A DNA stretch of 64,000 nt from an uncultured delta proteobacterium (GCA_963727445.1 CAVSGI010000009.1:352001-416000); one strand, 5' to 3'. Shown: positions 26,453 through 41,437, numbered from the stretch's first letter. Notes: a model not told the origin generated them from the letters alone. Numbers and translations: made by a program.

Positions 26453-26509
26453 GGCCGGTTGTGGGAAATGCGGCTTGCGCACCGAGCGCGCACGCCCGAG
26501 AGACACCCC

Positions 26510-27040
26510 ATGGGACGGAGAGGACGAGAGCTCCTGACGCAGCGGTGGGCGACTCACCGAAACTGGTCCAAGCAAGCGGCCATGCTGAGGTCTCACGACC
26601 GACTCGAGCATGCGTCGGCTCGCGTCGTGGAGATGACGCGCGAGACCGACGAGCCTGGGCGCGCAGCCCGTGCGTTCCGGCATCTGCTTCCTTCGGTCGA
26701 CAGCCACCTTCAATACCAGGAGCAGAAGCTCCTGCCGTTTCTCGAGTGGCGATGGGGCACTTCGACCGCCGCGCTCCTCGCGGACCAGAGGGCGCTCGTC
26801 GCGCAGCGAAGCGAGGTCATCGCCGCCCTGGAGGCCGCGGCGGCCGACGCAAAGCTCAGAGGCGTCGCGCTGGAGCGACTCGAAGCGCATCACGCGCTCC
26901 TCGTCCGCACCCTCGCGGCGACCGAGACGCTCGCCATTCCGCTCCTCGTCCAGCTGAGCCCATCGGAGCTCTCCAGCTTCACCCTCATGCGCGTGGGAGG
27001 GCTCCGTGAGCTCATCGCCACGCACGCTGCCGCCGAGTAG
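26510..27040 (+). CDS. Hemerythrin-like helical protein with degenerate metal ligands
   Basis: SHDRL, HLQYQEQKLLP pattern resembling HxxxEExxLxP; start uncertain. Confidence 0.55.
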   Translation: MGRRGRELLTQRWATHRNWSKQAAMLRSHDRLEHASARVVEMTRETDEPGRAARAFRHLLPSVDSHLQYQEQKLLPFLEWRWGTSTAALLADQRALVAQRSEVIAALEAAAADAKLRGVALERLEAHHALLVRTLAATETLAIPLLVQLSPSELSSFTLMRVGGLRELIATHAAAE

Positions 27041-27084: not shown

Positions 27085-27729
27085 ATGGCCGAGCAGCAGA
27101 ACAAACGAGTTCGCGTCATCTCCGGTGCACACGGGGTCACCCTGCGTGCGACGCTCGGACTCCTCGACGCCATCGGGACGACCTTCGAGTCCCTTGGCTG
27201 GACCCTCGGGGCGGTGAGGGCGCGGCGGCGCCTCTCCCGGCTTCTCGACGAGGCCGGGCATCCCGTCCCCATCGCCGGGGCGTCGGAGGGTGTGATCCGC
27301 ATCGAAGGCCGCGTCGAGCTCCTCGATTCGGTCGACGATGAGCATGGGGATGCGGTCGCGGCGTTTCTGGTGCGCGAGACCAGAGACGAGGCGTGCGGTT
27401 GCCAGAGCAACTGCACCGCGATCAAGCGTTGGGTCACGACGCGCGGCAACGCCGGACGATTCATGGTGCGGGACGCGGGCGGCGTCGCCTTGGTGATCGG
27501 CCCGCGCCTTCGGCTCCTGGACTTTCGCGGCCAGCCGGTCGATCCCTTCGAGGCCGGCGCGCTCCGGGTGCGCGACGGAGATCTGGTGACCGTCCTCGGC
27601 TCGGCGGCGAACGAGGTCGTGGAGGAGTCGCGCGCGCGCCCGGCAGACGGGTATCGCGGAACGCGGACGACCCCAGTGTTTCGCGCGGTCCCAGAGATTC
27701 CGGTCCACGTCTTCTGCGCCCGATCCTAG
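27085..27729 (+). CDS. Hypothetical protein
   Basis: Clean ORF with plausible composition; GDLVTVLG...GYRG C-terminal segment. Confidence 0.6.
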   Translation: MAEQQNKRVRVISGAHGVTLRATLGLLDAIGTTFESLGWTLGAVRARRRLSRLLDEAGHPVPIAGASEGVIRIEGRVELLDSVDDEHGDAVAAFLVRETRDEACGCQSNCTAIKRWVTTRGNAGRFMVRDAGGVALVIGPRLRLLDFRGQPVDPFEAGALRVRDGDLVTVLGSAANEVVEESRARPADGYRGTRTTPVFRAVPEIPVHVFCARS

Positions 27730-27755: not shown

Positions 27756-28748
27756 TCACCACAGCGCGTGGTGGTCTTCGACGACGCCGAAGAGGCCGCT
27801 CACATCGTGGCCGAGGACGTTGCCTTCGAAGCGACCGTAGGGCTGGACGAAGTCGGTGCGCAGTGGCCCCACGCCCATGTGCTCCTCGCGCGCGCCCTCT
27901 GGATGGATCTCGAGGTCGACCTCGTCGCCTTCGAGGGAGCGGACGCGCCACGGCTCGTCCTTCGGCCGTGGGGGCACGTCGAAGCGCACACCGCCGAGGG
28001 GCACGACGCGGCCGTCGATCCACGCGGCGTTCTCGCGTGAATGTCCGCGTTCGTCGTCGTAAACCTGCGCGGAGAGGTTGAGCCCGAAGGCACGCCCATC
28101 CGCGAGGCGTCCACTCGTGCAGCACCAGTTCCACACCGTCTCGCGGCGGGCCTGCGAGCGAGTCCAATCGCTCGCAGCGAGCGCGCCCTCCAAAGAGATC
28201 GGCACGTCGCCGAGCCGGAGTGCACCCGAGGCTGGCCATCCCGCGGCCTTGTGGGTGTAGGCGACGTGCGTGGCGTCGAGGCGGTGCAGCATGGCGAGAG
28301 ACTCCTGCGCCTCGATGTGCGCTTCGCCGGTGAGTCGCAGCGCGCCGACGGGCAGATCCAGCGCCACGTCCCATCCATCGCGGGCGGTGATCGACACCGC
28401 CGCCTCCCGCGTCTTCCACGCGGTCGTGCCCCGGACCGAGCTCTCGGCGATGCTCGGCTGCCGGCCGAGCGGCGAGATCACACCGTACTCATGTGTGGGT
28501 GCGTCGCCCGCGCGGTCGACGGCGTAGGCGAAGACGCTCCCCACGTAGCCGAGCTGCACCAGGCCGAGGGCGACAAAGAAGCGATCGTTGGTGAAGGAGA
28601 GGTAGTGCCACTCCTTGAGCCGGTAACGCGACAGACCTCGTCCACCGAGATCGATCTCGGCGAAGGGCGTTCGGTAGATCCCGAGCTGCGCGTCGTCGCC
28701 GGGTGCGTAGACGTCGGGCGCTTCGGGCAGTGAAGGCAGCTCGCTCAC
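27756..28748 (-). CDS. DUF2804-family protein
   Basis: KEWHY, YTHKAAG, DWTR, WNW, FGLNL, ENAAWIDG, FVQPYGRFEG, GVVEDHHALW. Confidence 0.8.
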   Translation of the reverse strand: MSELPSLPEAPDVYAPGDDAQLGIYRTPFAEIDLGGRGLSRYRLKEWHYLSFTNDRFFVALGLVQLGYVGSVFAYAVDRAGDAPTHEYGVISPLGRQPSIAESSVRGTTAWKTREAAVSITARDGWDVALDLPVGALRLTGEAHIEAQESLAMLHRLDATHVAYTHKAAGWPASGALRLGDVPISLEGALAASDWTRSQARRETVWNWCCTSGRLADGRAFGLNLSAQVYDDERGHSRENAAWIDGRVVPLGGVRFDVPPRPKDEPWRVRSLEGDEVDLEIHPEGAREEHMGVGPLRTDFVQPYGRFEGNVLGHDVSGLFGVVEDHHALW

Positions 28749-28764
28749 GGATGCGGGCAGGCGT

Positions 28765-29397
28765 TCAGGCGAGGACGCCGCGGAGGTTGTAGTCGAGCAC
28801 CGCGCGGCCGATGCGCTCGGGATCGGCCTCTCCGTCCTGCATCAAGCGCTCCTCGAGCAGATACTTGATGGAGCCGAGGATGCAGCTCGCGACGATGTCC
28901 ACGTCGACGTCGCGCACGAGGCCCAGCCGCTGCCCGTTCTCGAGGGAGTAGCGGATGAAGTCGTGAAGGCTCCCGTAGAAGCTGCTGAGCTTCTTGTCGA
29001 CCTCGGCGTCGAGGCCGACCGCCTCGCGCAGCAGGATGCGCGTGAGCGCCTTGTGTTCGGTGACCGAACGGACGATGCGCGAGACCGTTTCGACCAGCTG
29101 ATCCTGAATGGGAGGGGCGCCATCCGTGGTGTCGACGCCGACCACCGTCTTGCGCAGCTCGGCGAGGAGCTCCTCGGTGAGCTCGACGAAGATCGCCTGC
29201 TTGGACTCGAAGTAGAGGTAGAAAGTGCCGCGCGCGATGCCCGCCGCGTCGATGATGTCGCTGATGCGCGTGCCGTGATAGCCCTTGGCGGCGAAGACGG
29301 TCTCCGCCGTTCGCAGGATCTCTGCGCGCCGCGTCTCACGCTGCGCTTCGGCGCGAAGGCTTCGGCCGTCGACGCGTTCGGTGCTGGTCTCGCTCAC
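28765..29397 (-). CDS. TetR/AcrR-family regulator
   Basis: FAAKGYHGTRISDIIDAAGIARGTFYLYFESK; GTG start overlapping the acyltransferase stop. Confidence 0.92.
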   Translation of the reverse strand: MSETSTERVDGRSLRAEAQRETRRAEILRTAETVFAAKGYHGTRISDIIDAAGIARGTFYLYFESKQAIFVELTEELLAELRKTVVGVDTTDGAPPIQDQLVETVSRIVRSVTEHKALTRILLREAVGLDAEVDKKLSSFYGSLHDFIRYSLENGQRLGLVRDVDVDIVASCILGSIKYLLEERLMQDGEADPERIGRAVLDYNLRGVLA

Positions 29398-30200
29398 GCC
29401 CCCCTCCACGCGCGGCGCCCGTTCTCGGCTGCCTGTTGGGTCTCGTATTCTTCGAAGTAGGCGTCGACACGACGCGCGATGGGCTCGCGCACCTTCGCCG
29501 CGAGCTCCTCGACGGTTTCCGGTCCGGTGCTCGAAATAGGCTGCTCGCAATAGACGGTCACCGTGTTGCCGGGTCGGATGATCCAGGAATCGGCGCGCAT
29601 CACGTGTTGCATTCCGGTGACGGCGACCGGGACGATCGGGATGTCGAGCTCGCGCGCGATGTGGAAGACCCCGCGCTTGAAAGGACGCACGCGTCCGTCG
29701 CGAGTGCGGTGTCCTTCGGGGAAGGCGAGGATCGAATGGCCGGCATCGATCTCGCGCTTGAAGTCCTCCATGAGGCGTCGCGTCTGGCTCGCGCCCCGGT
29801 GGACCGCGATGGTGCCGCGCTGCCTCATGAACCAGCCGTAGACCGGGTATTCGAAGTGCTTCGCGAGCTCGAGGCCCTGTTTGAAGTGGGGCGTTGCGTC
29901 GTACATCGTGCAGTGGTCGAAGTGGTTCACGTGGTTGCACGCGAACACGTACTGCCGATTCGGGTCCACGTCGGGGTGGACGACGGCGCGCCACTTCGAG
30001 CCGGTGAGGGCGACCTGGCCGCGGACGTAGAGCCGGTTGAGCCACTCGATCTGGTCGGAGCGCAGGAAGGTCTGCAGGGCCATCATCGACCCCATGCAGG
30101 GCACGATCGACGAGACGCCTGCGGCCCACAGGCCGGCGGAGACGACCTTGTCGCCGAGGGTCGCGGGGGGCGCTGCGTTCTTCTTCTTTCGCTCGCTCAT
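29394..30200 (-). CDS. Lysophospholipid acyltransferase (PlsC family)
   Basis: NHVNHFD (HxxxxD), FPEGHRT, PFKRG, PIVPVAV. Confidence 0.92.
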   Translation of the reverse strand: MSERKKKNAAPPATLGDKVVSAGLWAAGVSSIVPCMGSMMALQTFLRSDQIEWLNRLYVRGQVALTGSKWRAVVHPDVDPNRQYVFACNHVNHFDHCTMYDATPHFKQGLELAKHFEYPVYGWFMRQRGTIAVHRGASQTRRLMEDFKREIDAGHSILAFPEGHRTRDGRVRPFKRGVFHIARELDIPIVPVAVTGMQHVMRADSWIIRPGNTVTVYCEQPISSTGPETVEELAAKVREPIARRVDAYFEEYETQQAAENGRRAWRGA

Positions 30201-31105
30201 GCGATCACCTTCAGGGCGCCCGGCACCACCTCGAGGGCTTCGAGCTTCAAAGGAATCACTTCTCCATCCACCATGCATTCCAGCTCGCCCACGTTCTCGA
30301 GCTCGACGCGCCTCGCGCGGGTCTGCTCCACGTCGGGGGCGGTCACGTGCTTGCCGTCGAAGATCTCGGGGAAGGTCTTGAGCAGCTTCACCCGGCCGAT
30401 GTCGCCCACGCGAATGACGTCGAGCTCGCCGTCGCTCGGGTCCGCCGACGGCGCCATCATCATGGTGCCGCCAGTGAACTTGCTGTTCGAGAACGACAGC
30501 AGCACCGCCGGACGCTCGTCCAACTCCCCTCCGTCGAGACGCATGGGAAAGACGGGATGCTTGAGCTTCGCCGTGCAGACCACGGTGGCCAGGACGTAGC
30601 CTGCCGTGCCCAACCCCTTGAAGCGGCGGTTGGTGAGCCCGCCTGCGTCGGCGGTGAAACCGATGGAGAGCAGGTTGATGTAGTGGAGGATGCCGTCCGC
30701 GTGCTCGGCGCGGATCACGTCGCACTCCCGCTCGCGCCCGCGCGCCAGCGCCTCGATGGCGAGGTCGGTGGTGTCGATGTCGAAGTCCCGCAGGAAGGAG
30801 TTGCCGGTGCCGAGGGGCAAGAGGCCCAGCACCGGCGCGCCCGCGCCGTTCGCCTTCTTCGGGTCTGCGGCGAAGATTCCGTCGACCACTTCGAAGCTGG
30901 TGCCGTCGCCGCCTACCGACAGAAAGTGCGTGACGCCGCGCTCGCGCGCGTCCTTGGCGAGCTCGCGCGCGTGTCCCGGCCCGCGTGTCCTGTGCACCTC
31001 CATCTTCAGGCCGCCCCGCTCGAGGCGCGCTCGCGCATCACCGAACCTCTTTCGGGCGCGGCCTCCGCCGGCGGCGGGGTTGAAGATGGTGAAGAAGGTC
31101 GTCAT
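30197..31105 (-). CDS. Diacylglycerol/sphingosine kinase-family lipid kinase
   Basis: NPAAG, VGGDGT, LPLGTGN, VDGE. Confidence 0.92.
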   Translation of the reverse strand: MTTFFTIFNPAAGGGRARKRFGDARARLERGGLKMEVHRTRGPGHARELAKDARERGVTHFLSVGGDGTSFEVVDGIFAADPKKANGAGAPVLGLLPLGTGNSFLRDFDIDTTDLAIEALARGRERECDVIRAEHADGILHYINLLSIGFTADAGGLTNRRFKGLGTAGYVLATVVCTAKLKHPVFPMRLDGGELDERPAVLLSFSNSKFTGGTMMMAPSADPSDGELDVIRVGDIGRVKLLKTFPEIFDGKHVTAPDVEQTRARRVELENVGELECMVDGEVIPLKLEALEVVPGALKVIA

Positions 31106-31108
31106 CGC

Positions 31109-32833
31109 TCAGCTCAGCGGCCTCACCACGCTCTTGTCGAGGCTCGTGCGCAGGGCGTCGGCGAGGACGCCGCGCTTGAGCTTCATCGAGGCCGTGCGGG
31201 GGAACTCGTCCTCCCAGCGAACCAGACCCGCCACGCGCTTGAAGTCGGGGAGACGGTGATTGCGGGCGCTGAGCTCCTGGCGGAGCGCGTCCTCGTCCTC
31301 GTCCTCGCCGCGGTAGACCGCGACCAGCACCTCTTCTTCGAGCTTGCCGCCGGGCCAGATGTAGTTGGTGGCGAAGACGGCGAGCTCATCGCAGGGCAGG
31401 CCTTCGAGCTTCTGCTCGATGTCCTCGGGGTAGATGTTCTTGCCGCCGGCGGTGACGATCATGTTCTTCGATCGCCCGACGAGGTGCAGATGACCACTGG
31501 CGTCGAGCCAGCCGAGGTCACCGGTGTGGAGCCAGCCGTCGCGGATGGTCTCCGCGGTCTGCTCGTCGTCGTCGAGGTAGCCCTTCATGATGGTGCGCCC
31601 GCGGATGAGCACCTGCCCGACGCCCTCGTCGTTCTCGCCCTCGATGCGTATCTCGACGCCGTCCACCGCGCGGCCGACGGAGTCGCCCCGGAAGGGCATC
31701 AGATCGTTGACGGTGGCGACGGTGCAGGCTTCGGTGAGGCCGTAACCGATCACCACCGGGATGCCGAGGCGATAGAAGAATTCCGCCCGCGCCTTGTCGG
31801 TGAAGGCGCCGCCGCAGAAGAGCATCTTCAGCGAGCCGCCGAAGGCCTCGTGCACCGGCTTCAGCAGCCGGCTCGAGAGTGCGTGGTTGGGGGCGCGGTC
31901 GGTGAGGATCTGGTTGAAGGAGGACAGGACCTCGAAGAGACCGCGCTTGGTGGGCGTCGCTTCGTCGAGCTTGTCCTGGATGCGCCGCTCGAAGGCTTCG
32001 AGGATCAGCGGGACCACCGCCATGTGGGTGATCTCGTACTCCTTCATCGTCCAGTTGATGAACTCGGGGCGGAGCGAGCGCTGATGAATGATCGCCGCGC
32101 CGCCGCAGAGCGGACCGACGAAGCCCACCATGAAGTCGATGGCGTGATTCGTCGGCAGGATCGAGAAGTAGCGATCGCCGATGCCCATCGGGAAGAGCGA
32201 TCCGAGCGAGCGGTACTGCTCCAGGTAGTTGTCGTGGGTGAGCATGCACCCCTTCGGCCGCCCGCCGGTCCCCGAGGAGTAGACGATGGTCGCGACGTCG
32301 TCGCGGGTCCGCGGCACGAAGCCCGGGCTGTGCCCGTTCTCCGCCGCCGGCAGCTCTTCGTAGCGAACCGCGCCTTCTGGCAGCGTCTCCTTCTCCGGAG
32401 CCTCGCTCACGACGACCAGGGGGACGGACGCCACGTCGTCCCCGAAGCGCCGCCATAGGGGGTACTCGACGAAGAGGGCCTTGGGCTTGGCGTGGGCGAG
32501 GAGGGCGGCCTGGTCGTCGGTCTCGAGCTTGTAGTCGAGAGGGACGAGGATCGCGCCTCGGTACATGGCGGCGTAGGCGCTGATGAGCCAGCGGGGCTGG
32601 TTGCTCATCAGGATGGCGACGCGGTCGCCGGCGCCGATGCCCGCATCCTCGAGGAGGCGCGCGACCTTCATCGCTTCGCGCCGGAAGTCGTTGTACGTGT
32701 ACGCCGACTTCTCCTTCTTGCGGCTCGCCTCGACGAGCGCGATCTCGCTCTTGTAGGTGAGGAGCGCGTCGGTGAGGAGCTCGCCCAGCGAGTCGTAGCG
32801 CTCGGGCGCGATCATCGTGTGCGTCTCGCTCAC
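31109..32833 (-). CDS. Long-chain fatty acyl-CoA/ACP ligase (AMP-binding)
   Basis: YSSGTGGRPKG, GYGLTE, WLHTGDLG, GRSKNMIV, GKNIYPEDIE, TASMKLKR. Confidence 0.93.
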   Translation of the reverse strand: MSETHTMIAPERYDSLGELLTDALLTYKSEIALVEASRKKEKSAYTYNDFRREAMKVARLLEDAGIGAGDRVAILMSNQPRWLISAYAAMYRGAILVPLDYKLETDDQAALLAHAKPKALFVEYPLWRRFGDDVASVPLVVVSEAPEKETLPEGAVRYEELPAAENGHSPGFVPRTRDDVATIVYSSGTGGRPKGCMLTHDNYLEQYRSLGSLFPMGIGDRYFSILPTNHAIDFMVGFVGPLCGGAAIIHQRSLRPEFINWTMKEYEITHMAVVPLILEAFERRIQDKLDEATPTKRGLFEVLSSFNQILTDRAPNHALSSRLLKPVHEAFGGSLKMLFCGGAFTDKARAEFFYRLGIPVVIGYGLTEACTVATVNDLMPFRGDSVGRAVDGVEIRIEGENDEGVGQVLIRGRTIMKGYLDDDEQTAETIRDGWLHTGDLGWLDASGHLHLVGRSKNMIVTAGGKNIYPEDIEQKLEGLPCDELAVFATNYIWPGGKLEEEVLVAVYRGEDEDEDALRQELSARNHRLPDFKRVAGLVRWEDEFPRTASMKLKRGVLADALRTSLDKSVVRPLS

Positions 32834-33063
32834 AGCCGCCTCCCGATGATCTCGGCCAGGCCGCCGAAGGTGTTGACGCCCTGGACCTCGTAATCCGGAA
32901 TCTCGACGTCGAACTCCTCTTCGAGCTCGGTGAGCATGTCCATCGCCTGGTAGCTGTCGATCCCCAGCTTCTCGAAGAAGTCGTCCCCGGCAACCAGGGT
33001 CGACGCGTCCTTGTCGAAGCGCTTGGCTGCGAGCGCGATGAGCTTTTTCTCGATGTCGGTCAT
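32830..33063 (-). CDS. Acyl carrier protein
   Basis: 77 aa acidic protein; LGIDSY phosphopantetheine Ser; LEEEFDVEIPD. Confidence 0.92.
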   Translation of the reverse strand: MTDIEKKLIALAAKRFDKDASTLVAGDDFFEKLGIDSYQAMDMLTELEEEFDVEIPDYEVQGVNTFGGLAEIIGRRL

Positions 33064-34028
33064 GGCAGGTACGGCCTCACGTCGTCGGACTCGACGAACT
33101 TCTTCAGCGCCGCCTCGACCACCGGCGAGGCGAAGAGATGAGTGAAGAGGCGCTTCTCGCGGTCCAGGTCGCGGCGCGGCAGCGGCTTGATGAAGGGCTT
33201 GGCGAGGGCGCTGGTGTCGCGGTCGAAGCGCGCCGCCTGCTTGGCGACCTCGATGGCGACGTTCAACGCTTCGCCCCGCGCCACCACCTGAGAGACGAGG
33301 CCCACCTCGTGGGCCCGCGTCGCGCGCAGGCTCCGCCCGGTCAGCAGGAGGTCGCGCACCACGGCGTTGCCGAGATCGCGATTGAGGCGCGGCACTCCGC
33401 CGAAGCCGGGCACCAGACCCAGGCGCAGCTCCGGGAAGCAGAAGCGCGCGCTCTTGTCGGCGATGATCACGTCAGAGGTCAGCGCCAGCTCGAAGCCGCC
33501 GCCGAAGACGAAGCCGTGCACGGCGGCGATGGTGGTGATGGGCACCGTGTCGAAGACGTCGAAGACGCGGTGGATGCGATCGATGAAGCTCCGGAGCTCG
33601 TGCGCCTGGGCGAGGAGCGGCACGCCCGAGGCTTTGCGCTCCTGTATGCCTTCGTAGAGCTCGCGCAGGTCGGCCCCGGCGCTGAAGCCCTTCTCGCGCG
33701 CGCTGTAGAAGACGAGCGCCCGCGCGCCACCGGCCCCGCGCTCGAGGTAGCCGGCGAGCTTCTCGAGCTCGCCCAGCATGACGGTTCCGATCTCGTTGAT
33801 CGGCGCCCGGTCGAGGGTGACCTGGAGCGCTTCGCCGTCGTGCTCCCACCGGATCGCCTCGCCCGCGAAGGCCTCGGGCCGCGCGTTCTTCGCCATCTTG
33901 GAGAACGCCGCCGGGTCCGAGAAGGGCCGCTCCTCACCGCTCAGCACGCGCCCGACCACCGACCGCACGTGCTCCCCGTCGAGCACCGCGCGCGCGATCC
34001 GCGTCTTGAGCTGGTCCTTCTTGCTCAC
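33060..34028 (-). CDS. Enoyl-CoA hydratase/isomerase (crotonase) family protein
   Basis: FSAGADL, GGGFELAL, FPELRLGLVPGFGG; both catalytic Glu present. Confidence 0.92.
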   Translation of the reverse strand: MSKKDQLKTRIARAVLDGEHVRSVVGRVLSGEERPFSDPAAFSKMAKNARPEAFAGEAIRWEHDGEALQVTLDRAPINEIGTVMLGELEKLAGYLERGAGGARALVFYSAREKGFSAGADLRELYEGIQERKASGVPLLAQAHELRSFIDRIHRVFDVFDTVPITTIAAVHGFVFGGGFELALTSDVIIADKSARFCFPELRLGLVPGFGGVPRLNRDLGNAVVRDLLLTGRSLRATRAHEVGLVSQVVARGEALNVAIEVAKQAARFDRDTSALAKPFIKPLPRRDLDREKRLFTHLFASPVVEAALKKFVESDDVRPYLP

Positions 34029-35551
34029 GCGTAGAGCTCCTTCAGCTTCGCCACGTTCGGCGGAAGCGCCGGGAGGTGATCCCACGGGTCGCCCCCCGCG
34101 CCGATCCCCTCGCGGAACGGGAACTCTGGATGGTGCGTCTTGACGTGCTCGGCCAGGTCGATGCCCATCTGGCCCATGCGCTCGAGGTTCTTCACCACGC
34201 AGCGCCCGATGCCCTCGCGCATCGTCTCGCCGTCGCGGATCAGCTCGACCAGGACGTCGTAGGTCTTGTCGGCGAGATTCGGGTCGTCCACCTCGAGGGC
34301 GAGGTGCGGTGTCCCGCGGTCCACCATCAGATTGCGGATCCGCTCGTCCATGGTGATCCCCGCCGACGGAACGAGGCCGGGCATCGATGTCACGATGGCG
34401 TGATAGCGGCTCGAGACCATCGCGCTCGCCTGGCGGATCACGCTGACCATCTCGTACATCTCGTGCTCGTCCGAGACGAAGACCGGCATCCCGCCGAAGA
34501 TGTCAGCGAGCATCTCGCAGGCGCCCCGGTCGAGCTGCTCCATGCCCACCGCGATCGGGAAGCACTCGTGCTCGTCGGCGAAGCGGCGCGCCGCCTCGGC
34601 CATCGCCCGTACGTACGTCTTCTGCTTGTCGCGGATCTCGTCGCTCGACGCGTGGAAGTAGACCGACTTGTAGTGGCTCGGGTCGTCCGCTCCGGCGGCG
34701 ACCAGCGCCGCCTTCAACACGTCCGGCTTCACCGGCCACCAGAAGGCGTTGATCGGGCAGAGCGCGATGACCGGCTTCTCCCCGTCCCATCCCGCGTCGC
34801 GGAGGAGCTTCTGCCCCACGGCGTCGGGCGCAGGCGCGAAGGTCCATGCGGTATCGGTCCCGGCCCGCGACGCGACGCCGAGCCGCGACAGCACCTCGCG
34901 GCTCTCGGCGTTGCGCGCGATGATCAGCGCGTCCTGGCAGTACTTGCGGACCAGCTCCTCGAGGGACTCGTCCATCTTGCCCGCCTCGCCGCCGTACCCG
35001 ACGGCGATCTTGCCCTCGGCCGACGCCAGGCCCAGCGAACCCACCATCATCGTCGACAGTGCGTTGGCGAACTTGCTCTTGAACATCGAGCCTTCGCACG
35101 CGATCACGCCGTGCTGCTTGTGCACGGTGTCGAAGAGGAACTTCGGATAGAGCTGGGGAAGCGTCAGCTGCTTCACCGTGCGGAAGTAGCCGCGGCTCAG
35201 CTCGGGATCGATGGTCAGGATCGACAGCTCGACGTGGTCGTCGCCGAAGACGTGTCGGAACTGCCGGATCATCTCCTCCACGCGCACGTCGGCCCCGGTG
35301 TTGCGCGTCCCGGTGTAGCCAGCGAGCAGGAGCCGGAGCGGCCGCCCGGGCGTCCACACCGCGCCCGCATCGAGCGCGTAGCGACTCTTGGCGAGCTCGA
35401 TGAAGCCAGCCATCGTGCCCATCAGCACCTTGTCGGAGTCGACGCCGTCCTTGGTGGACTCGGCGACCTTCTTCACGAAGCGCCGGGCGCTGGCGAAGAG
35501 CCCGTCACCACCCCGCTTCGCGAGCAGCGCGCTGGTCGTCGGGGCGCTCAC
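34025..35551 (-). CDS. Polysaccharide pyruvyltransferase-family protein
   Basis: GYTGTRNTGAD, ARNAESRE, DTAW, VSSRYHA. Confidence 0.8.
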   Translation of the reverse strand: MSAPTTSALLAKRGGDGLFASARRFVKKVAESTKDGVDSDKVLMGTMAGFIELAKSRYALDAGAVWTPGRPLRLLLAGYTGTRNTGADVRVEEMIRQFRHVFGDDHVELSILTIDPELSRGYFRTVKQLTLPQLYPKFLFDTVHKQHGVIACEGSMFKSKFANALSTMMVGSLGLASAEGKIAVGYGGEAGKMDESLEELVRKYCQDALIIARNAESREVLSRLGVASRAGTDTAWTFAPAPDAVGQKLLRDAGWDGEKPVIALCPINAFWWPVKPDVLKAALVAAGADDPSHYKSVYFHASSDEIRDKQKTYVRAMAEAARRFADEHECFPIAVGMEQLDRGACEMLADIFGGMPVFVSDEHEMYEMVSVIRQASAMVSSRYHAIVTSMPGLVPSAGITMDERIRNLMVDRGTPHLALEVDDPNLADKTYDVLVELIRDGETMREGIGRCVVKNLERMGQMGIDLAEHVKTHHPEFPFREGIGAGGDPWDHLPALPPNVAKLKELYA

Positions 35552-36708
35552 GCCTGGATCTCCGTCGGGACGTGAACCCGGACCGGTCGGTCGGGGAAGG
35601 GCTTGTAGGGGTACTGGTAGTCGTGATCGCGCACCCAGTGGTAGAGCGGCACGCAGTAGTCGACGAAGGGCACCGGCGCCTCCCCGCGCAGCGCCTCGAC
35701 CGCGCGGCTGTTGTCGAAGACCGTGTCGTAGGTCATGTATGGCCAGAACACCTTGAGCACCGCCGCCAGGCCGGTGACCGCGTTGCGGGCCGGGAACTGG
35801 TCGACGAGGCCGACGAGCGTCGAAAAGCCCTGGTCGAGCGCTGGCACGAAGCGCGCGGGCCGCTGCCCGATCGCTCGCGCCACCACCTGCGTGATCTCGC
35901 GCGCGGTGTTCGACGCCTCGCCCGCGGAGAGGCTGTAGGCGTCGTACTTCGGCTCCGGCGTGAGGAACACCTTGGTGATCACCCGGGACACCCAGTCCAC
36001 GTTCGCGATGTCGATGCGCACGTTGCCGTCCATCGGAAGGATCGGCAGGCCGGCGAGGATGCCCAGCATCTTCGCCATGTCGAAGGCCGTGGTCCGGGGG
36101 TGCCGCGCGTCACCGAAGACGCTCACCGGCCGGTAGACGACCCGCGTCACGTCGGGCAGGAGCTCGTCCACCATGTGCTCGGCGAACTTCTTGGTGCGCG
36201 CGTAGGGGTCGTAGTCCGAACGATCCCACTCGACGGTCTCGTCCTCGGTCAGCACTTCGCCGTGGCGCTTACCCGCCACCGCGGCGGTCGAGATGTGATC
36301 GAAGCGACGAAGGCCGTGATGGTCGCGCGCGTCGCGCGCCATCTCGATGACGGCGAGGGTGCCACGGAGGTTGTGGTTGAAGCAGGCCTTGGCCGACTTG
36401 CGGTTGAGCGACGCCGCGATGTGCAGGAACGACGAAGACCCGCGGACCACGCGATCGTAGGTCTCGTCGTCGAAGCCGAGCCGCGGCTCGGTGAGGTCGC
36501 CGAGGGCGATGTCGATCCGATCGAGCGCGTCGAAGAACTCGGGGCCGTCCATGTGATTCTGGAAGGCGCGCCAGATCTTCTCTTCGGCGGCCTTTCGGCT
36601 GCCGCCGCGGACCAGGAGCGTCAAGCGTTCGTCACTTCGCCGCAGCAGGCGCGCCGCGACGTAGCTGCCGATGAATCCGGTACCACCGGTGACAAAGATG
36701 CTCATCAC
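35548..36708 (-). CDS. Extended SDR / thioester-reductase-like NAD(P)-dependent oxidoreductase
   Basis: TGGTGFIG, GDLTEPRLG, HISTA, YARTK. Confidence 0.88.
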   Translation of the reverse strand: MMSIFVTGGTGFIGSYVAARLLRRSDERLTLLVRGGSRKAAEEKIWRAFQNHMDGPEFFDALDRIDIALGDLTEPRLGFDDETYDRVVRGSSSFLHIAASLNRKSAKACFNHNLRGTLAVIEMARDARDHHGLRRFDHISTAAVAGKRHGEVLTEDETVEWDRSDYDPYARTKKFAEHMVDELLPDVTRVVYRPVSVFGDARHPRTTAFDMAKMLGILAGLPILPMDGNVRIDIANVDWVSRVITKVFLTPEPKYDAYSLSAGEASNTAREITQVVARAIGQRPARFVPALDQGFSTLVGLVDQFPARNAVTGLAAVLKVFWPYMTYDTVFDNSRAVEALRGEAPVPFVDYCVPLYHWVRDHDYQYPYKPFPDRPVRVHVPTEIQA

Positions 36709-38420
36709 GGTTCCTCTCGAAGAAGGGTCGGCTCGGCCGAGGTCGCGCCGGCACTCTGCTGGCGGCGAGCGGAGGCGCTCGAGCCCTTCACCCGCGCCTC
36801 GGGGGCGCCGGCCTCAGCCTGGGAGCGCGCTCTTTCAGGGCGCGGGAAGGGGGGATCCTCGTCGATGCGTTCGTTGCGGAGCAACGGCAGGCACCAGAGC
36901 TCGAGGCCGGGCACGTGGATCTCCATCCAGTAGCGCCGCCAGTCGATCTCTTCGGTGTCGTAGCCGAAGAGCGCGCCCTCTTCCTTCGAGAGCTTCGACG
37001 AGAGCGCTCGAACGTTCTTCGTCATGTAGACGTAGTCGTTGTCGTGGATGAAGGGCTTGTAGAGGCGGAGCATGTCCTCGATCAGCCCGATCTGCCGGTC
37101 GGCGTTCCGGAACTCCATCGACCAGCGCTTCATCTTCGAGTCGATGTCGTCGCCCAGGCGTTCGTGGAGCACGCGGGGCAGGGACTCCGTCGGGCGGAAG
37201 TCCTTGAGCCATTTCCGCCCCTTCTGAGCCGTCCGGCGGAGGAACGGCAGCGAGGGGAAGGGGTCTTCCTGTCCATCGCGCGGGACCGCGTCGAGGAAGC
37301 GGATGAGGAGCTTGTCCAGCGCCGCGGCGCCTTCCTTCTTGTGGATGCGCCGCGCAGCGAGCGCCGTCAGGTCGATCGCGCGATCGAAGAAGAGCGGATT
37401 CGTGTCGGAGGTGCCGAGGTGGTAGACGCGCTCGGCTTCGCCTCGGAGCTGCGCCGCGAGGATCAACATCACCGAGCGCGCGACGGTGTCTACGGGGATC
37501 ACGTCGAAGTGATTGTCGGGATTGCTCGGGAAGCTGCGGAACCAGCTCGAGAGGAGCCACACCAACGGCCCGCTGGTGTTGATGCCCTCGTTCCAGCCCG
37601 CGAAGGGATAGTTGCGGGCCGACTCCACCACCGACGGTCGCACCAGGGTGAGATCGATGTCGTCGCGCAGGGCGTGCAGGTGCTCCGACAGACCCTTGGT
37701 GAAGGTGTAGATGTTCGGCCACCCGAGGGACCAGGCCTTCTCGTTGGTGATGGAGACGCGCTCGCGGCGCGTCTCGACGTGGTCGAGCTTCTCGAAGAGC
37801 TCGCGCACCACCTCCGAGGGGTCGAAACGCGTGCCGTTCGGTGAGACGCCGGCCTCGATCTCCTCCGGGATCTCCCCGGAGACGTTGCCCGCGACGAAGG
37901 CGGTCGAGATGTGGAGGAAACGCGGCACGCGCAGGCGCGCCGCCACGTCGGCGGCGTTTTCACCGCCGAGGGTGTTGGTCTTCAGGCCCAGGATCGGATC
38001 GGGCTCGAAGTCGGTGAGCCCCGCGAAGTGGACGACGGCGTCCAGCGTCTCGGCGAGGCGCGAGACCGTGGCCTCGCCGAGGCCGCAGAGCGGCTTGCCC
38101 ACGTCCCCGTCGAGGACCTCCACCCGCTCTTCGACGAAGGCGTGAAAGCGCTCGCGGCCGAGCTTTTCGCGCAGCGGCCGGAGGGCCGGGCTCCGCTCGG
38201 CGAAACGCCAGAAGCGCTCCTCTGCGCTGCCCTTGCGGTTGCCACGCACGACGACGCTGACCCGCCGGATCTCCGGCACGTGGTCGAGGAGCATCGTCAG
38301 CCAGATCTTGCCGAGGAAGCCGGTGACGCCGGTGACCAGGACGTGCTTGCCGGCCAGGGTCTCGCGCACGCGAAGCTCTGCGCCGCGCCCGTTGCCGTTC
38401 TTCTTGCCGTTCGACGCCAC
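36705..38420 (-). CDS. Fatty acyl-CoA/ACP reductase (FAR, male-sterility domain type)
   Basis: TGVTGFLGK, HISTAFV, WPNIYTFTK, VRPSVVES, PFAGWNEG, DVIPVD; C-terminal IDWRRY. Confidence 0.9.
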   Translation of the reverse strand: MASNGKKNGNGRGAELRVRETLAGKHVLVTGVTGFLGKIWLTMLLDHVPEIRRVSVVVRGNRKGSAEERFWRFAERSPALRPLREKLGRERFHAFVEERVEVLDGDVGKPLCGLGEATVSRLAETLDAVVHFAGLTDFEPDPILGLKTNTLGGENAADVAARLRVPRFLHISTAFVAGNVSGEIPEEIEAGVSPNGTRFDPSEVVRELFEKLDHVETRRERVSITNEKAWSLGWPNIYTFTKGLSEHLHALRDDIDLTLVRPSVVESARNYPFAGWNEGINTSGPLVWLLSSWFRSFPSNPDNHFDVIPVDTVARSVMLILAAQLRGEAERVYHLGTSDTNPLFFDRAIDLTALAARRIHKKEGAAALDKLLIRFLDAVPRDGQEDPFPSLPFLRRTAQKGRKWLKDFRPTESLPRVLHERLGDDIDSKMKRWSMEFRNADRQIGLIEDMLRLYKPFIHDNDYVYMTKNVRALSSKLSKEEGALFGYDTEEIDWRRYWMEIHVPGLELWCLPLLRNERIDEDPPFPRPERARSQAEAGAPEARVKGSSASARRQQSAGATSAEPTLLREEP

Positions 38421-39083
38421 TCAGCCCTCCAGCACCGGCCAGTCGAGGTCACGCGCCATGGCGCGGAGCTGACGGTCGGGATGAATCGCGCAAGGCTTTC
38501 CGATGGACTCGAGGAGCAGCCCGTCGTCCGCGTCGGAGCCGTAAGCACAGGAGCGCGCGAGATCGATGTCGTGCTCGGCGGCGAAGCTCTTCGCCCAACG
38601 GCTCGCCAGGTTACCGTTGATGACGGGGTCGAGCAGGCGGCCGGTGCACTTCCCGTTCTGGATCTCCATTCGATTGCACACGTAGTCGGCCACCCCGAGA
38701 TGCTGCGCCAGTGGGCGGATCACCACCTCGAGGTTGTCGCTGATCAACACGACCTTCTCCCCGCGCTCACGCGCCTCGTCGAGGAGCTTCACGCCCACGG
38801 TGCGGAGCTTCGGCGCGATGTAGTCGTCGAAATACTCCTCGCCGAGAATGATCAGCCGGTCTTCGCTCATGCCGCAGAGGCCCATCCACGCCATGCGGCT
38901 GCCGACGGTCGCGTCGCGCAGTGGACTGCCGAAGAGGAAAGGGGCTGCGAGTGCCACGCTGGACAAGCGCGCGAAGCGCTCGCCCACGTGTTGCGCGTTG
39001 CCAGCGAACCACGCTGCCGCCGTCAGGGTCGGGCGTACGGAGAGACTTCCCTCCACCCGAAAAAACGCCGCTGTTCGACTCAC
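38421..39083 (-). CDS. HAD-IB-family hydrolase-like protein with degenerate motif I
   Basis: AAFFRVEGSL in place of DxDGTL; VLIS, IDLARSCAYG, LLESIGKP...PD. Confidence 0.8.
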   Translation of the reverse strand: MSRTAAFFRVEGSLSVRPTLTAAAWFAGNAQHVGERFARLSSVALAAPFLFGSPLRDATVGSRMAWMGLCGMSEDRLIILGEEYFDDYIAPKLRTVGVKLLDEARERGEKVVLISDNLEVVIRPLAQHLGVADYVCNRMEIQNGKCTGRLLDPVINGNLASRWAKSFAAEHDIDLARSCAYGSDADDGLLLESIGKPCAIHPDRQLRAMARDLDWPVLEG

Positions 39084-39165: not shown

Positions 39166-39179
39166 ACTGACGTGTCAGT
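39166..39179. promoter_or_regulatory. Palindromic operator candidate for the lipid operon
   Basis: ACTGAC-GT-GTCAGT about 80 bp upstream of the first gene; operon encodes a TetR. Confidence 0.55.
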
Positions 39180-39595: not shown

Positions 39596-40222
39596 TCAGG
39601 TCGCGTGCCTTCGAGGGGCCAACAGACCGGTGCTGACGCCAACGACGGCGCCCATCAGGCCACCGGTGATGAGGAGCACACCCAGCGCACCGGGACCATA
39701 AGCCCCGGCAGGCATGGCGTTCGTTCCGAAGTAGGAGACCAACATCGCCAGCGCCCAGCCGATGACGTTGGCGGTGATCCACCGCCGCGCGACCTCGCTG
39801 TGACGGCGGAGCAGCAGCGCTTGGGCAGTTCCGAGGATCGCGCCGAGCCCGACCCCCGAGGCCAGGGCGTAGACGATCATGGTGCCGCTGTTCGGGCTGC
39901 TGAAGTCCTCGCTCCCGCCGGCGACCACCGAGCCCACCGCCCAGCCGGCCGCCATGCCGAGCCCAGTGACGGCGGTGAAGCCCCAGGCCGAGAGCTCGGG
40001 AAAGCGGCGCCGTAAGAGCGCGACCTGTGCACCGCCGACGCACGCACCCTCCACGAAGCCGGCGAAGACCATCAGTCCGCGGATCATCCAGGGCGAGGGC
40101 TCGCCCGCCGCCGGCGCGAAGATCGCGCCCACCAGGCCGGCGACCACCCCGCTGAAGGCGAGGCCCATCGCTTCGCCGACGGCGCAGGCGCCGATCCAGG
40201 AGATGAAGATGCGCGGGGGCAC
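39596..40222 (-). CDS. Gly-rich multi-pass membrane protein
   Basis: About six hydrophobic helices with repeated GxAQ...LRR motif; fused to the kinase N-terminus in the ORF track only because of a frameshift. Confidence 0.75.
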   Translation of the reverse strand: MPPRIFISWIGACAVGEAMGLAFSGVVAGLVGAIFAPAAGEPSPWMIRGLMVFAGFVEGACVGGAQVALLRRRFPELSAWGFTAVTGLGMAAGWAVGSVVAGGSEDFSSPNSGTMIVYALASGVGLGAILGTAQALLLRRHSEVARRWITANVIGWALAMLVSYFGTNAMPAGAYGPGALGVLLITGGLMGAVVGVSTGLLAPRRHAT

Positions 40223-40271
40223 GAGGGCGTGGGTATACCTGCATGCCCCCGCATGACAATGGGCGAGGGAC

Positions 40272-41437
40272 TCAGGCGTCCGGCGGGCACGGCAGGAACA
40301 TCTCGAAGCGCGCCCCGCCGTCGGGAGCCGAACAGCAGCGGATTCGAGCCGCCCTGGTTGTCGATCAACGCCTTCGCGATGGGCAGGCCGAGACCGAGAC
40401 CGTAGGCCTTGGTGGTGACGAGCGGTTCGAAGAGTCGTTCGCGCTGCTCGTCGTCGATGCCGGTACCTTCGTCCTGGACCGCCAACAGAATCTGCGTGTC
40501 GCATGGCTCCGAGGTGATGGTGACCGTGCCCCCCGCGGGCATCGCGTCGAAGGCGTTCTCCAGGAGATTGCCGATGGCTTCGGTCACCTGAGCCCCGTCC
40601 ACCAGGGCGCGGAGTCCCTCGTCGATCGACACGTCGACTCGGATCTCGCCCACGGAAGCGTGAGTCTCGAGCGCAGCGTCCACGATGTCGCGGACGCTCA
40701 CCACAGCACGTTCGGGTGGACGGACGCGGCCGAAGTCGAGCAGCTCGCGGATGATCGAGTCCGCTCGCTGAACCTCTTCGCGAATGATGTCGACTGCCTG
40801 AATCGCGTGCGGATGAGCGTTCGGGTCCAGGTGACGCCGAAGCACGGCGCCCGCGTTGGCGATGGCCGCGAGCGGGTTGCGGATTCTGATGTGCGACACC
40901 GCCGGCGAGCTGGCCGAGGGCTGCCAGTCGCTCACGGCGAATCAGCCGCTCCTGCGCTTCCTCGAGCTGGTGCGTGCGCTCGGCCACCCGTTGCTCGAGC
41001 TCGTCGTTGGCGCGTTTGAGCGCTTCCTCCACCTCCTTGAGCGGCGTGATGTCCTTGATGATGCCCACCAGGTGGGTGACCTCTCCCTCGGCGTTGGTCA
41101 GCGGGACCTTCGTCGTGGCGAGGACGTGGACGGTGCCGTCCGCGTCGGTGATCGGCTCCTCTTCGATGGTGACCACGGCGCCGGTCCGAAACATCTCCCG
41201 GTCCTTTTGACGAAAGAAGTCCGCCTCTTCCTTCTTGAAGAAGTCGTAGTCCGACTTGCCCAGGAGCTCCTCACGGCCGAACCCCGTCATCTCGGAGAAA
41301 GCGCGGTTGACCAGCACGAAGCAGAAGCTCCGATCCTTCACGAACACCGGGTGGCCGATGTTCTCGACGATCGCCGAAAGGAAGGCGACGGATTCGGCAC
41401 CCCAAGGTGCGACGTCGTCCTCCGGAGCTTCCCCCAT
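40272..41437 (-). CDS. PAS-domain sensor histidine kinase (apparent frameshifts at ~40884 and ~40343)
   Basis: PAS (VFVKDR, LLGKSDYD), H-box GGVAHQ|IRNPL, N-box NLLENAFDAM, QDEGTGI, LFEPLVTTK, GLGLGL; corrected end GARFEMFLPCPPDA*. Confidence 0.88.

What the first reader, a model, noticed from the sequence alone, without database searches (positions are those of the whole stretch)
27756..39083. Split ElbD-like lipid assembly line with extra tailoring genes: candidate undescribed (ether) lipid pathway
Seen: 11 co-oriented genes, nearly all overlapping or abutting, in the order HAD-like, FAR, extended SDR, pyruvyltransferase-family, crotonase, ACP, acyl-AMP ligase, lipid kinase, PlsC acyltransferase, TetR, DUF2804. 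Known: Myxococcus xanthus ElbD, needed for alkyl ether lipids, fuses FAR-like reductase, acyl-CoA-synthetase-like, carrier and acyltransferase domains in one protein. Inference: the same four activities occur here as separate genes with their own ACP and no ketosynthase. The added kinase, crotonase and pyruvyltransferase-like gene suggest a different end product. I do not recognise this gene set as a characterised pathway.
Basis: partly seen in the sequence, partly recalled or inferred. Interest (0 to 1): 0.85.

Follow-up and report, generated by a model that had tools for sequence, protein, structure and literature searches.

The report
Alternative ether-lipid operon built on PEP
Ten tightly packed lipid genes, kept in the same order in many myxobacteria and some Acidobacteria and found mostly in genomes that lack the known elb ether-lipid genes, likely make ether-linked membrane lipids by an untested route that would join a fatty alcohol to phosphoenolpyruvate and turn that unit into the glycerol backbone.

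Summary
The 11 genes are real (gaps -4 to +16 nt). Ten form a conserved operon with a palindromic operator upstream; DUF2804 is a passenger. It is a sister system of the Myxococcus elb operon, not a simply split ElbD. The reductase and ligase are ElbD homologues. ElbC (here found to be LarA-family) and ElbE are missing. In their place are a pyruvyltransferase-like GT-B protein with intact PEP-binding residues, a crotonase and a free thioester-reductase domain. The ElbB-like HAD has lost its catalytic Asp (74 of 76 copies). Of 251 phylum genomes, 29 carry the transferase, 80 carry ElbC and 2 carry both. In one family the split is 42/14/0, but that is a single switch on the tree. Best reading (0.4): fatty alcohol + PEP gives an enol ether, which is activated, hydrated and reduced to 2-O-alkylglycerol, then phosphorylated and acylated. 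An ether lipid by some route: about 0.65. No lipid or enzyme data exist. I found no description in the papers searched. This scan already reported the operon from nine other genomes, and the PEP-to-glycerol idea comes partly from those notes.

The parts
39166..39179 (.). Palindromic operator ACTGACACGTCAGT, 83-96 nt upstream of the first gene; likely bound by the operon's TetR
   Evidence: Found upstream of HAD in 27 of 27 loci that hold the TetR gene (window included) and in 10 of 48 loci without it in the stretch. Only site scoring >=14 among prefiltered candidates in the genome; none in 22 canonical elb stretches. One site in the window, 0.04 matches expected.
38421..39083 (-). ElbB-like HAD-IB protein without the nucleophilic Asp (RxE for DxD); likely a pseudo-phosphatase
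   Evidence: Pfam HAD. Arg in 74 of 76 copies; DxD in 10 of 10 ElbB. Runs into the FAR as one frame in acidobacterial loci.
36705..38420 (-). Stand-alone fatty acyl reductase (NAD_binding_4 + Sterile), homologue of the ElbD N-terminal domain
   Evidence: TGxxGxxG motif; Y238 and K242 invariant. Only FAR found in the genome.
35548..36708 (-). Free thioester-reductase (R) domain; not an ElbE orthologue
   Evidence: Best solved relative is the MxaA R domain (8e-34), then PKS/NRPS R domains and CAR. T140, Y168, K172 invariant. An ElbE query finds nothing at E<=1e-10 in these operons.
34025..35551 (-). Polysaccharide-pyruvyltransferase-like GT-B protein; PEP-site residues kept, acceptor side changed
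   Evidence: Pfam PF04230 just over cut-off. hhalign to 14 CsaB/WcaK-like proteins, P 99%. S155, R213, R382, H384, R404 in 91 of 91. Model pLDDT 86.8, GT-B fold.
33060..34028 (-). Crotonase with both catalytic glutamates (start codon uncertain)
   Evidence: Pfam ECH_1. GGGFELAL and FPELRLG invariant. Closest solved: EchA8, 8e-43.
32830..33063 (-). Acyl carrier protein (Ser36 in GIDS)
   Evidence: Pfam PP-binding. In 53 of 55 titled loci that span crotonase to ligase.
31109..32833 (-). Acyl-AMP ligase, sister clade of ElbD adenylation domains
   Evidence: (median 261 bits to 119 of 120 ElbD-type proteins).
30197..31105 (-). YegS/DgkB-family lipid kinase
   Evidence: TIGR00147 126 bits, over its cut-off of 118.65. 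GGDGT motif.
29394..30200 (-). PlsC-family acyltransferase (HxxxxD at 90-95)
   Evidence: Follows the kinase in 36 of 39 titled loci with room.
28765..29397 (-). TetR-family regulator, likely repressor of the operon
   Evidence: In 18 of 80 titled loci. Co-occurs with the operator.
27756..28748 (-). DUF2804 gene; co-oriented but not part of the conserved unit
   Evidence: No hit in 100 related loci.

Best explanation
This is a conserved ten-gene operon that likely builds an alkyl-ether phospholipid precursor whose three-carbon backbone would come from phosphoenolpyruvate (PEP), and it likely stands in for the elb pathway in the lineages that carry it. Shown: the genes, their families and catalytic motifs, their order, their distribution and the operator. 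Inferred, each enzyme doing its family's usual chemistry once: (1) ligase, ACP and FAR, the ElbD-like arm, turn a fatty acid into a fatty alcohol; (2) the pyruvyltransferase-like protein binds PEP, the alcohol attacks C2 and phosphate leaves, giving a 2-alkoxyacrylate (enolpyruvyl ether); (3) a ligase makes its thioester (ligase 2 where present; here the one remaining ligase or a housekeeping FadD); (4) the crotonase adds water at C3, giving a 2-O-alkylglyceryl thioester; (5) the R-domain reductase releases 2-O-alkylglycerol; (6) the kinase phosphorylates it; (7) the PlsC-family enzyme acylates the free hydroxyl, giving an acyl/alkyl phosphatidic acid. The HAD is likely a non-catalytic partner of the FAR. 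TetR likely represses the operon at the palindrome.
For: ElbD kinship of FAR and ligase. Same operon opening as elb (HAD, then FAR), and three canonical elb loci also have a DGK-family kinase after ElbE (L125, L190, L191). Near-exclusive distribution: transferase in 29 and ElbC in 80 of 251 genomes, both in 2; of 104 genomes with this FAR, 103 have one or the other; 42/14/0 in the 59 genomes of the Paraliomyxa family. PMC12224551 Tables 2-3 report the elb cluster missing from Nannocystis, Enhygromyxa salina, Pseudenhygromyxa and Sandaracinus amylolyticus; one search shows this operon in records titled Nannocystaceae, Nannocystis sp., Paraliomyxa and Sandaracinaceae. PEP-site residues invariant, mapped by motif and spacing to CsaB S88/R148/R306/H308/K328 of PMC10435577. 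The sugar-acceptor loop Arg is replaced by an aromatic insert of about 33 residues. A second, R-type reductase and an intact crotonase imply a second thioester that is hydrated and reduced. Kinase then acyltransferase imply a free monoalkyl diol. Fusions FAR-transferase (P0242; partial P0247) and transferase-ligase 2 (P0289) fit the order of steps. 2-O-monoalkyl glycerols with an sn-1 acyl chain exist in bacteria (PMC5552659).
Against: No lipid, enzyme or expression data. The characterised relatives of the transferase that I read about make cyclic ketals on sugars; enol transfer is documented there only for MurA (PMC6801904, passages). Structure search ranks Pvg1p only 36th (Z 16.2), behind ordinary glycosyltransferases (Z 21), so the fold alone does not prove PEP use. 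CsaB R207, essential there, has no counterpart. The elb product has its ether at sn-1 (PMC9131029) and PlsC usually acylates sn-2 (established knowledge); both favour a 1-O-alkyl product over mine. The family-level exclusion is one switch on the RpoB tree, and two genomes of one genus keep both systems. Parts are dispensable: ligase 2 is in only 49 of 65 loci and has no orthologue in this genome; the R reductase is missing in L163 and L173; the ACP in L033, L036, L040, L067, L074. Fusions of neighbours can arise by loss of a stop codon. This genome also holds an AGPS-like gene and a wax synthase that could use the alcohol.
Confidence: 0.4

Rival explanations
1. Same operon, an ether lipid, different chemistry: it makes the usual 1-O-alkyl-2-acyl product, or a 1,2-diether. 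For example, the crotonase adds the fatty alcohol instead of water to C3 of a PEP-derived acrylyl thioester, or the transferase does an ElbC-like step that does not use PEP.
For: Replacement of elb, whose product is sn-1 alkyl (distribution). PlsC normally acylates sn-2. DgkB-type kinases normally take diradylglycerol. PlsC is missing in 3 of 39 titled loci.
Against: Needs chemistry I know no precedent for in crotonases. Leaves the PEP-site conservation or the C2 substituent unexplained.
Confidence: 0.25
2. A glycerol-free lipid. The crotonase makes 3-hydroxyacyl thioesters, the reductases give an alkane-1,3-diol, and this is either capped as a cyclic pyruvate ketal (the transferase's usual reaction) or phosphorylated and acylated.
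For: A 1,3-diol matches the 4,6-diol geometry of known ketal transferases. One fusion joins a ligase, an ACP and the transferase (P0241).
Against: Ketal and kinase/acyltransferase compete for the same two hydroxyls, so the genes would not form one path. Does not explain the exclusion with ElbC.
Confidence: 0.15
3. The operon mainly supplies fatty alcohols for wax esters or for an unlinked AGPS, and the transferase pyruvylates an unrelated glycolipid or polysaccharide.
For: The genome has a WS/DGAT gene and an AGPS-like gene (3e-59 to a solved AGPS) on the same contig, 65-90 kb away.
Against: No wax synthase, AGPS, glycosyltransferase or sugar gene is among the conserved members. The transferase is the central and best-conserved gene and fuses to FAR and ligase 2.
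Confidence: 0.12
4. A catabolic or salvage operon for prey lipids, induced through TetR.
For: Ligase, crotonase, kinase and TetR are common in lipid breakdown; the operator is single and dedicated.
Against: Two NAD(P)H thioester reductases, an ACP and an acyltransferase point to synthesis; no thiolase or dehydrogenase in the operon.
Confidence: 0.05

Closest known systems
Myxococcus xanthus elbA-E ether-lipid operon (ElbD; MIBiG BGC0000871), as summarised in PMC9131029
   Same: Opens with an ElbB-like HAD; homologous FAR and adenylation domains; a carrier, an acyltransferase and an SDR-fold reductase; sometimes a neighbouring lipid kinase; occupies complementary genomes.
   Different: No fused ElbD. 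No ElbC (LarA family) and no ElbE orthologue. HAD lacks DxD. ACP and PlsC are not recognisably ElbD's. Adds a pyruvyltransferase-like protein, crotonase, R domain, usually a second ligase, and TetR with its own operator.
Split elbD clusters of Poribacteria/Acidobacteria (bioRxiv 10.64898/2026.06.23.733905, parts 1-3 of 6 read)
   Same: Reductase separate from the adenylation domain; DAG kinases and acyltransferases next to some clades.
   Different: There the split falls only between reductase and A domain. No pyruvyltransferase or crotonase is mentioned in the parts read; its figures and supplements were not visible.
Ketal pyruvyltransferases CsaB (Paenibacillus alvei) and Pvg1p (PF04230)
   Same: GT-B fold; NxGD, GS, R(D/N), RxH and K/R motifs of the PEP site.
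   Different: Far below the CsaB cut-off (57 vs 213 bits); acceptor residues and loop Arg replaced; extra N-terminal helices and aromatic insert; lipid, not polysaccharide, neighbours.
MurA/EPSP-type enolpyruvyl transfer
   Same: The proposed step (alcohol + PEP gives enol ether + Pi) is the MurA reaction.
   Different: Different fold; followed here by a predicted hydration and thioester reduction instead of MurB-type reduction.
AGPS (eukaryote-like) and Ger/PlsA (anaerobic) ether routes (PMC9131029, PMC13159169)
   Same: Give alkyl glycerol ethers; AGPS uses a fatty alcohol.
   Different: No AGPS or Ger/PlsA domains in the operon; those routes start from acyl-DHAP or ester lipids.

Membership tests
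elb ether-lipid operon | FAR-A-T-AT fused ElbD | tested here: not met
   Four separate ORFs; no second FAR in the genome (85.6% complete).
elb ether-lipid operon | FAR and adenylation domains homologous to ElbD's | tested here: met
   Compared with ElbD-architecture proteins; the M. xanthus protein itself was not identified among them.
elb ether-lipid operon | ElbC (Lar_N, PF09861) beside ElbD | tested here: not met
   Next to ElbD in 16 of 20 canonical stretches (Pfam on 5 of 5); not in this operon; PF09861 not found in the genome.
elb ether-lipid operon | ElbE epimerase-type SDR | tested here: not met
   ElbE query: no hit at E<=1e-10 in loci L021-L120, against 40-49% identity among canonical loci.
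elb ether-lipid operon | ElbB HAD with DxD motif | tested here: not met
   Homologue present, but RxE.
elb ether-lipid operon | Needed for alkyl ether lipids | not testable with these tools
   No lipid data found for any carrier.
Polysaccharide pyruvyltransferase (PF04230) | Profile score over cut-off and GT-B fold | tested here: met
   28.7 vs 25.3 bits; GT-B matches; hhalign P 99%.
Polysaccharide pyruvyltransferase (PF04230) | PEP-binding Arg, RxH and Lys/Arg | tested here: met
   91 of 91; 77, 74, 75 and 75 of 77 distant representatives for R213, R382, H384, R404. Numbering to P. alvei CsaB inferred from motifs and spacing.
CsaB equivalog (TIGR03609) | Score over 213 bits; acceptor-loop Arg | tested here: not met
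   57 bits; Asn plus insert at the svR position.
Polysaccharide pyruvyltransferase (PF04230) | Ketal transfer to a sugar diol | not testable with these tools
   Needs an assay.
Thioester-reductase (R) domain | Closest to R domains; T/Y/K triad | tested here: met
   Below the TIGR01746 cut-off (105 vs 213 bits).
Enoyl-CoA hydratase | Two catalytic Glu and oxyanion hole | tested here: met
Active HAD phosphatase | Motif I Asp nucleophile | tested here: not met

The most novel reading that the evidence does not exclude
A separate, oxygen-tolerant way to make bacterial ether lipids. A glycosyltransferase-fold enzyme forms the ether bond directly between a fatty alcohol and PEP, and a small assembly line converts the enolpyruvate into the glycerol backbone, giving sn-2 ethers (or diethers) without glycerol-3-phosphate or DHAP. 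It replaced the LarA-family elb route in several myxobacterial lineages and also occurs in some Acidobacteria, where aerobic ether synthesis is unexplained.
Probability: 0.4. Interest if true: 0.9.

Novelty: new variant of a known kind. Interest (0 to 1): 0.66.

Why it matters
How aerobic bacteria form the ether bond is still open, even for ElbD (PMC9131029). Acidobacterial ether lipids matter as the source of brGDGT climate proxies, and aerobic Acidobacteria lack the Ger enzyme (PMC13159169). This operon gives a defined, separable enzyme set and a one-tube test: phosphate release from PEP with a fatty alcohol. It has a cultured carrier (Paraliomyxa miuraensis, L072). The swap between the transferase module and ElbC/ElbE also points at ElbC, a LarA-family protein, as the likely missing chemistry of the known pathway. 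Caution: only 9 of 201 Acidobacteriota genomes searched carry the transferase, so it is not a general explanation for that phylum.

Tried and rejected
Simple fission of ElbD: rejected (ACP and PlsC not matched, ligase clade outside the ElbD clade). Second SDR = ElbE: rejected. DUF2804 as a member: rejected. Reading the 42/14/0 family split as many independent events: rejected by the RpoB tree of 50 of the 59 genomes, where carriers are one clade (SH-aLRT 99); row G486 was mis-extracted and is ignored, and the outgroup was partial. A wider TetR regulon that might reveal function: only the operon's own site was found. Sequence search of the PDB with the transferase profile: nothing. Foldseek did not list Pvg1p in its shown rows. 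Promoter/terminator scan: nothing above chance. CarF-family search of the genome: no match, but no control rang either. A FAR-transferase complex prediction and a search for RNA runs were not available, so binding and co-transcription are untested. Garcia et al. 2011 (myxobacterial fatty-acid and alkylglycerol tables), Lorenzen et al. 2014 and Sinninghe Damste et al. 2018 were not seen; lipid content of the carriers is therefore unknown to me. Paper searches that found no description of this gene set: (open-access library only).
Full report
OBSERVATION. The 11 genes are as described, on the minus strand, with gaps of 0, -4, -4, -4, -4, -4, +3, -4, -4 and +16 nt. Pfam and NCBIfam confirm the labels. 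The transferase's closest titled relatives (72-73% identity) are records titled delta proteobacterium and Polyangiales, so the window is most likely from Myxococcota. The genome is 9.5 Mb and 85.6% complete. It holds one FAR, one PF04230 protein and no Lar_N protein by my searches.

CONSERVATION. The transferase was found in 26 of 41 relatives, this genome included. I cut 20 of the 28 listed places; 18 of these keep HAD-FAR-reductase-transferase-(ligase 2)-crotonase. Among the 80: the second reductase is present in 66 of 72 with upstream room, ligase 2 in 49 of 65 that reach the crotonase, the ACP in 53 of 55, PlsC in 36 of 39 and TetR in 18 of 80; DUF2804 was found in none of L021-L120. In an even sample the transferase is in 29 of 251 genomes of this phylum and 9 of 201 of the phylum of a Terriglobia record. 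It defines a large family: 280 representatives at 50% identity with E<=1e-30.

REGULATION. A 14-bp palindrome, ACTGACAYGTCAGT, lies upstream of HAD in 27 of 27 loci with the TetR gene and in 10 of 48 loci without it in the stretch; the 38 without a site include the Acidobacteriota- and Nannocystaceae-titled loci. In the window it is at 39166-39179. It was the only site found in this genome, and none was found in 22 canonical elb stretches. TetR binding is inferred.

RELATION TO elb. PMC9131029 (passages) describes elbA-E as two epimerase-type SDRs, a HAD, a protein of unknown function (ElbC) and ElbD (FAR, ACS, ACP, acyltransferase); only the ACS and ACP activities were shown in vitro and the ether-forming step is unknown. 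The window FAR matches 120 listed long proteins, nearly all of ElbD architecture, at 28-37% over about 90% of its length. Against these, the ligase scores a median 261 bits, ligase 2 149, PlsC 47, the second reductase 45, and the ACP nothing. In a quick tree of 55 adenylation domains the window ligase clade is sister to the ElbD clade (SH-aLRT 97), and ligase 2 groups with housekeeping ligases. In 20 stretches around fused ElbD, ElbC is adjacent in 16, none has the transferase, and one has a weak crotonase hit some kb away. ElbC is Lar_N in 5 of 5 scanned. ElbB keeps DxD in 10 of 10, whereas the HAD of this operon has Arg at the nucleophile position in 74 of 76. ElbE has no orthologue here; the second reductase is closest to the MxaA thioester-reductase domain.

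DISTRIBUTION AGAINST ElbC. In the same 251 genomes: FAR 104, transferase 29, ElbC 80 (one a weak partial match). All 29 transferase genomes have a stand-alone FAR (open frame under 1000 codons). Only G102 and G260, of one genus, have both systems, and 103 of the 104 FAR genomes have one or the other. In the family of Paraliomyxa (Nannocystaceae according to PMC9960870): 42 of 59 have the transferase, 14 have ElbC, none has both, 3 have neither. Against over-reading this: on an RpoB tree of 50 of these genomes the carriers form one clade. The pattern therefore rests on a handful of switches (this family, the window's order, family f50), which I did not count formally. PMC12224551 (passages with Tables 2-3) independently finds the elb cluster missing from Nannocystis, Enhygromyxa salina, Pseudenhygromyxa and Sandaracinus amylolyticus.

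THE TRANSFERASE. The AlphaFold model (pLDDT 86.8) is GT-B. Its best matches are glycosyltransferases and UDP-GlcNAc 2-epimerases (Z up to 21), with Pvg1p at Z 16.2, rank 36. Profile alignment to 14 CsaB/WcaK-like proteins from this phylum (P 99%) places N84/G86/D88, S155, R213, R382/H384 and R404 on the family motifs. By motif and spacing these match CsaB S88, R148, R306, H308 and K328, the PEP site of PMC10435577 (passages); all are invariant in 91 of 91. The acceptor residues Y14 and F16 and the essential loop R207 of CsaB are not kept; an aromatic insert of about 33 residues sits there. Longer forms: FAR-transferase (P0242; partial P0247), transferase-ligase 2 (P0289), ligase-PilZ-ACP-transferase (P0241). 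Each is a single cluster, so weak evidence.

MECHANISM (inferred). Using each family's usual reaction once gives a linear path: fatty alcohol; enolpyruvyl ether from PEP; thioester; hydration at C3 by the two-glutamate crotonase; reductive release as 2-O-alkylglycerol; phosphorylation; acylation. It explains the second reductase, the crotonase without any ketosynthase or thiolase, the kinase before PlsC, and the loss of phosphatase activity, since the transferase itself would expel the phosphate. 2-O-monoalkyl glycerols are known from bacteria (PMC5552659, passages). Weak points: enol transfer is not documented for this fold in what I read (PMC6801904, passages); the elb product is sn-1; several members are dispensable; and this copy lacks ligase 2 (best match in the genome 31%, against mostly 40-57% for orthologues). 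I put the full route at 0.4 and an ether lipid by any route at about 0.65. The idea of turning the PEP unit into glycerol was taken up after reading note e1-3853894 and is not independent of it.

LITERATURE. Also seen: bioRxiv 10.64898/2026.06.23.733905, parts 1-3 of 6 (supplements closed, and they may list clusters of this type); passages of PMC10087280 (Solibacter usitatus lacks ElbD), PMC13159169, PMC9960870 (no ether lipids mentioned, major fatty acids only) and PMC6163206 (for a reference). Lorenzen 2014, Sinninghe Damste 2018 and Garcia 2011 were not seen. Nine searches of the open library gave no description of this gene set.

EARLIER NOTES. The scan reported this operon from nine other genomes. 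One note (e1-1364856) was later partly overturned on a point about cultured ether-lipid makers; the text is cut off and I could not test it, so I claim no link to brGDGT producers.

VERDICT. A real, conserved, uncharacterised lipid operon; a sister of elb with a different core; a new variant of a known kind whose central step would be new chemistry if confirmed. Interest 0.66.

Noticed in passing
L121, L123, L126, L130, L134 (gene upstream of fused ElbD): ElbC, called a protein of unknown function in PMC9131029, carries a lactate-racemase N-terminal domain (PF09861) in 5 of 5 scanned and is well conserved (mostly 49-60% to the query across the phylum); a candidate for the unknown chemistry of the elb pathway.
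   Followed up: partly
L125:13174-14070, L190:3379-4296, L191:3744-4676: Some canonical elb operons have a DGK-family kinase right after ElbE, suggesting that both systems may pass through a free alkylglycerol.
   Followed up: partly
L184:4364-9442 (G000:C6:424364-429442): Two tandem BcrAD_BadFG activator domains and further pieces, in several frames, divergent from a TetR paralogue 36% identical to the operon's TetR. The layout recalls PlsA/Ger-type ester reductases; it may be broken or mis-assembled.
   Followed up: partly
L185:4789-6396 (G000:C9:313789-315396) and G000:C9:289363-290682: An AGPS-like flavoprotein (3e-59 to a solved AGPS) and a WS/DGAT gene lie on the same contig, 65-90 kb from the operon; possible other users of the fatty alcohol.
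   Followed up: partly
L167, L168 with L132, L133 (G102, G260): One genus carries both a canonical elb operon and the transferase operon at separate loci; useful for asking whether the products differ.
   Followed up: partly
L037, L052, L053, L056, L064, L162: Copies of the transferase with no operon neighbours in the stretch read; in L069, L071, L076, L081, L089 and L188 about 8-9 kb of other genes follow it before ligase 2.
   Followed up: no
window 39596-41437 (-) and 40084-40935 (-): A PAS-domain histidine kinase appears frameshifted: its catalytic half lies in another frame and the long ORF runs on into a membrane-protein-like sequence.
   Followed up: no
window 26459-27040 (+) and 27085-27729 (+): Two ORFs converging on the end of the operon with no Pfam match.
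   Followed up: no
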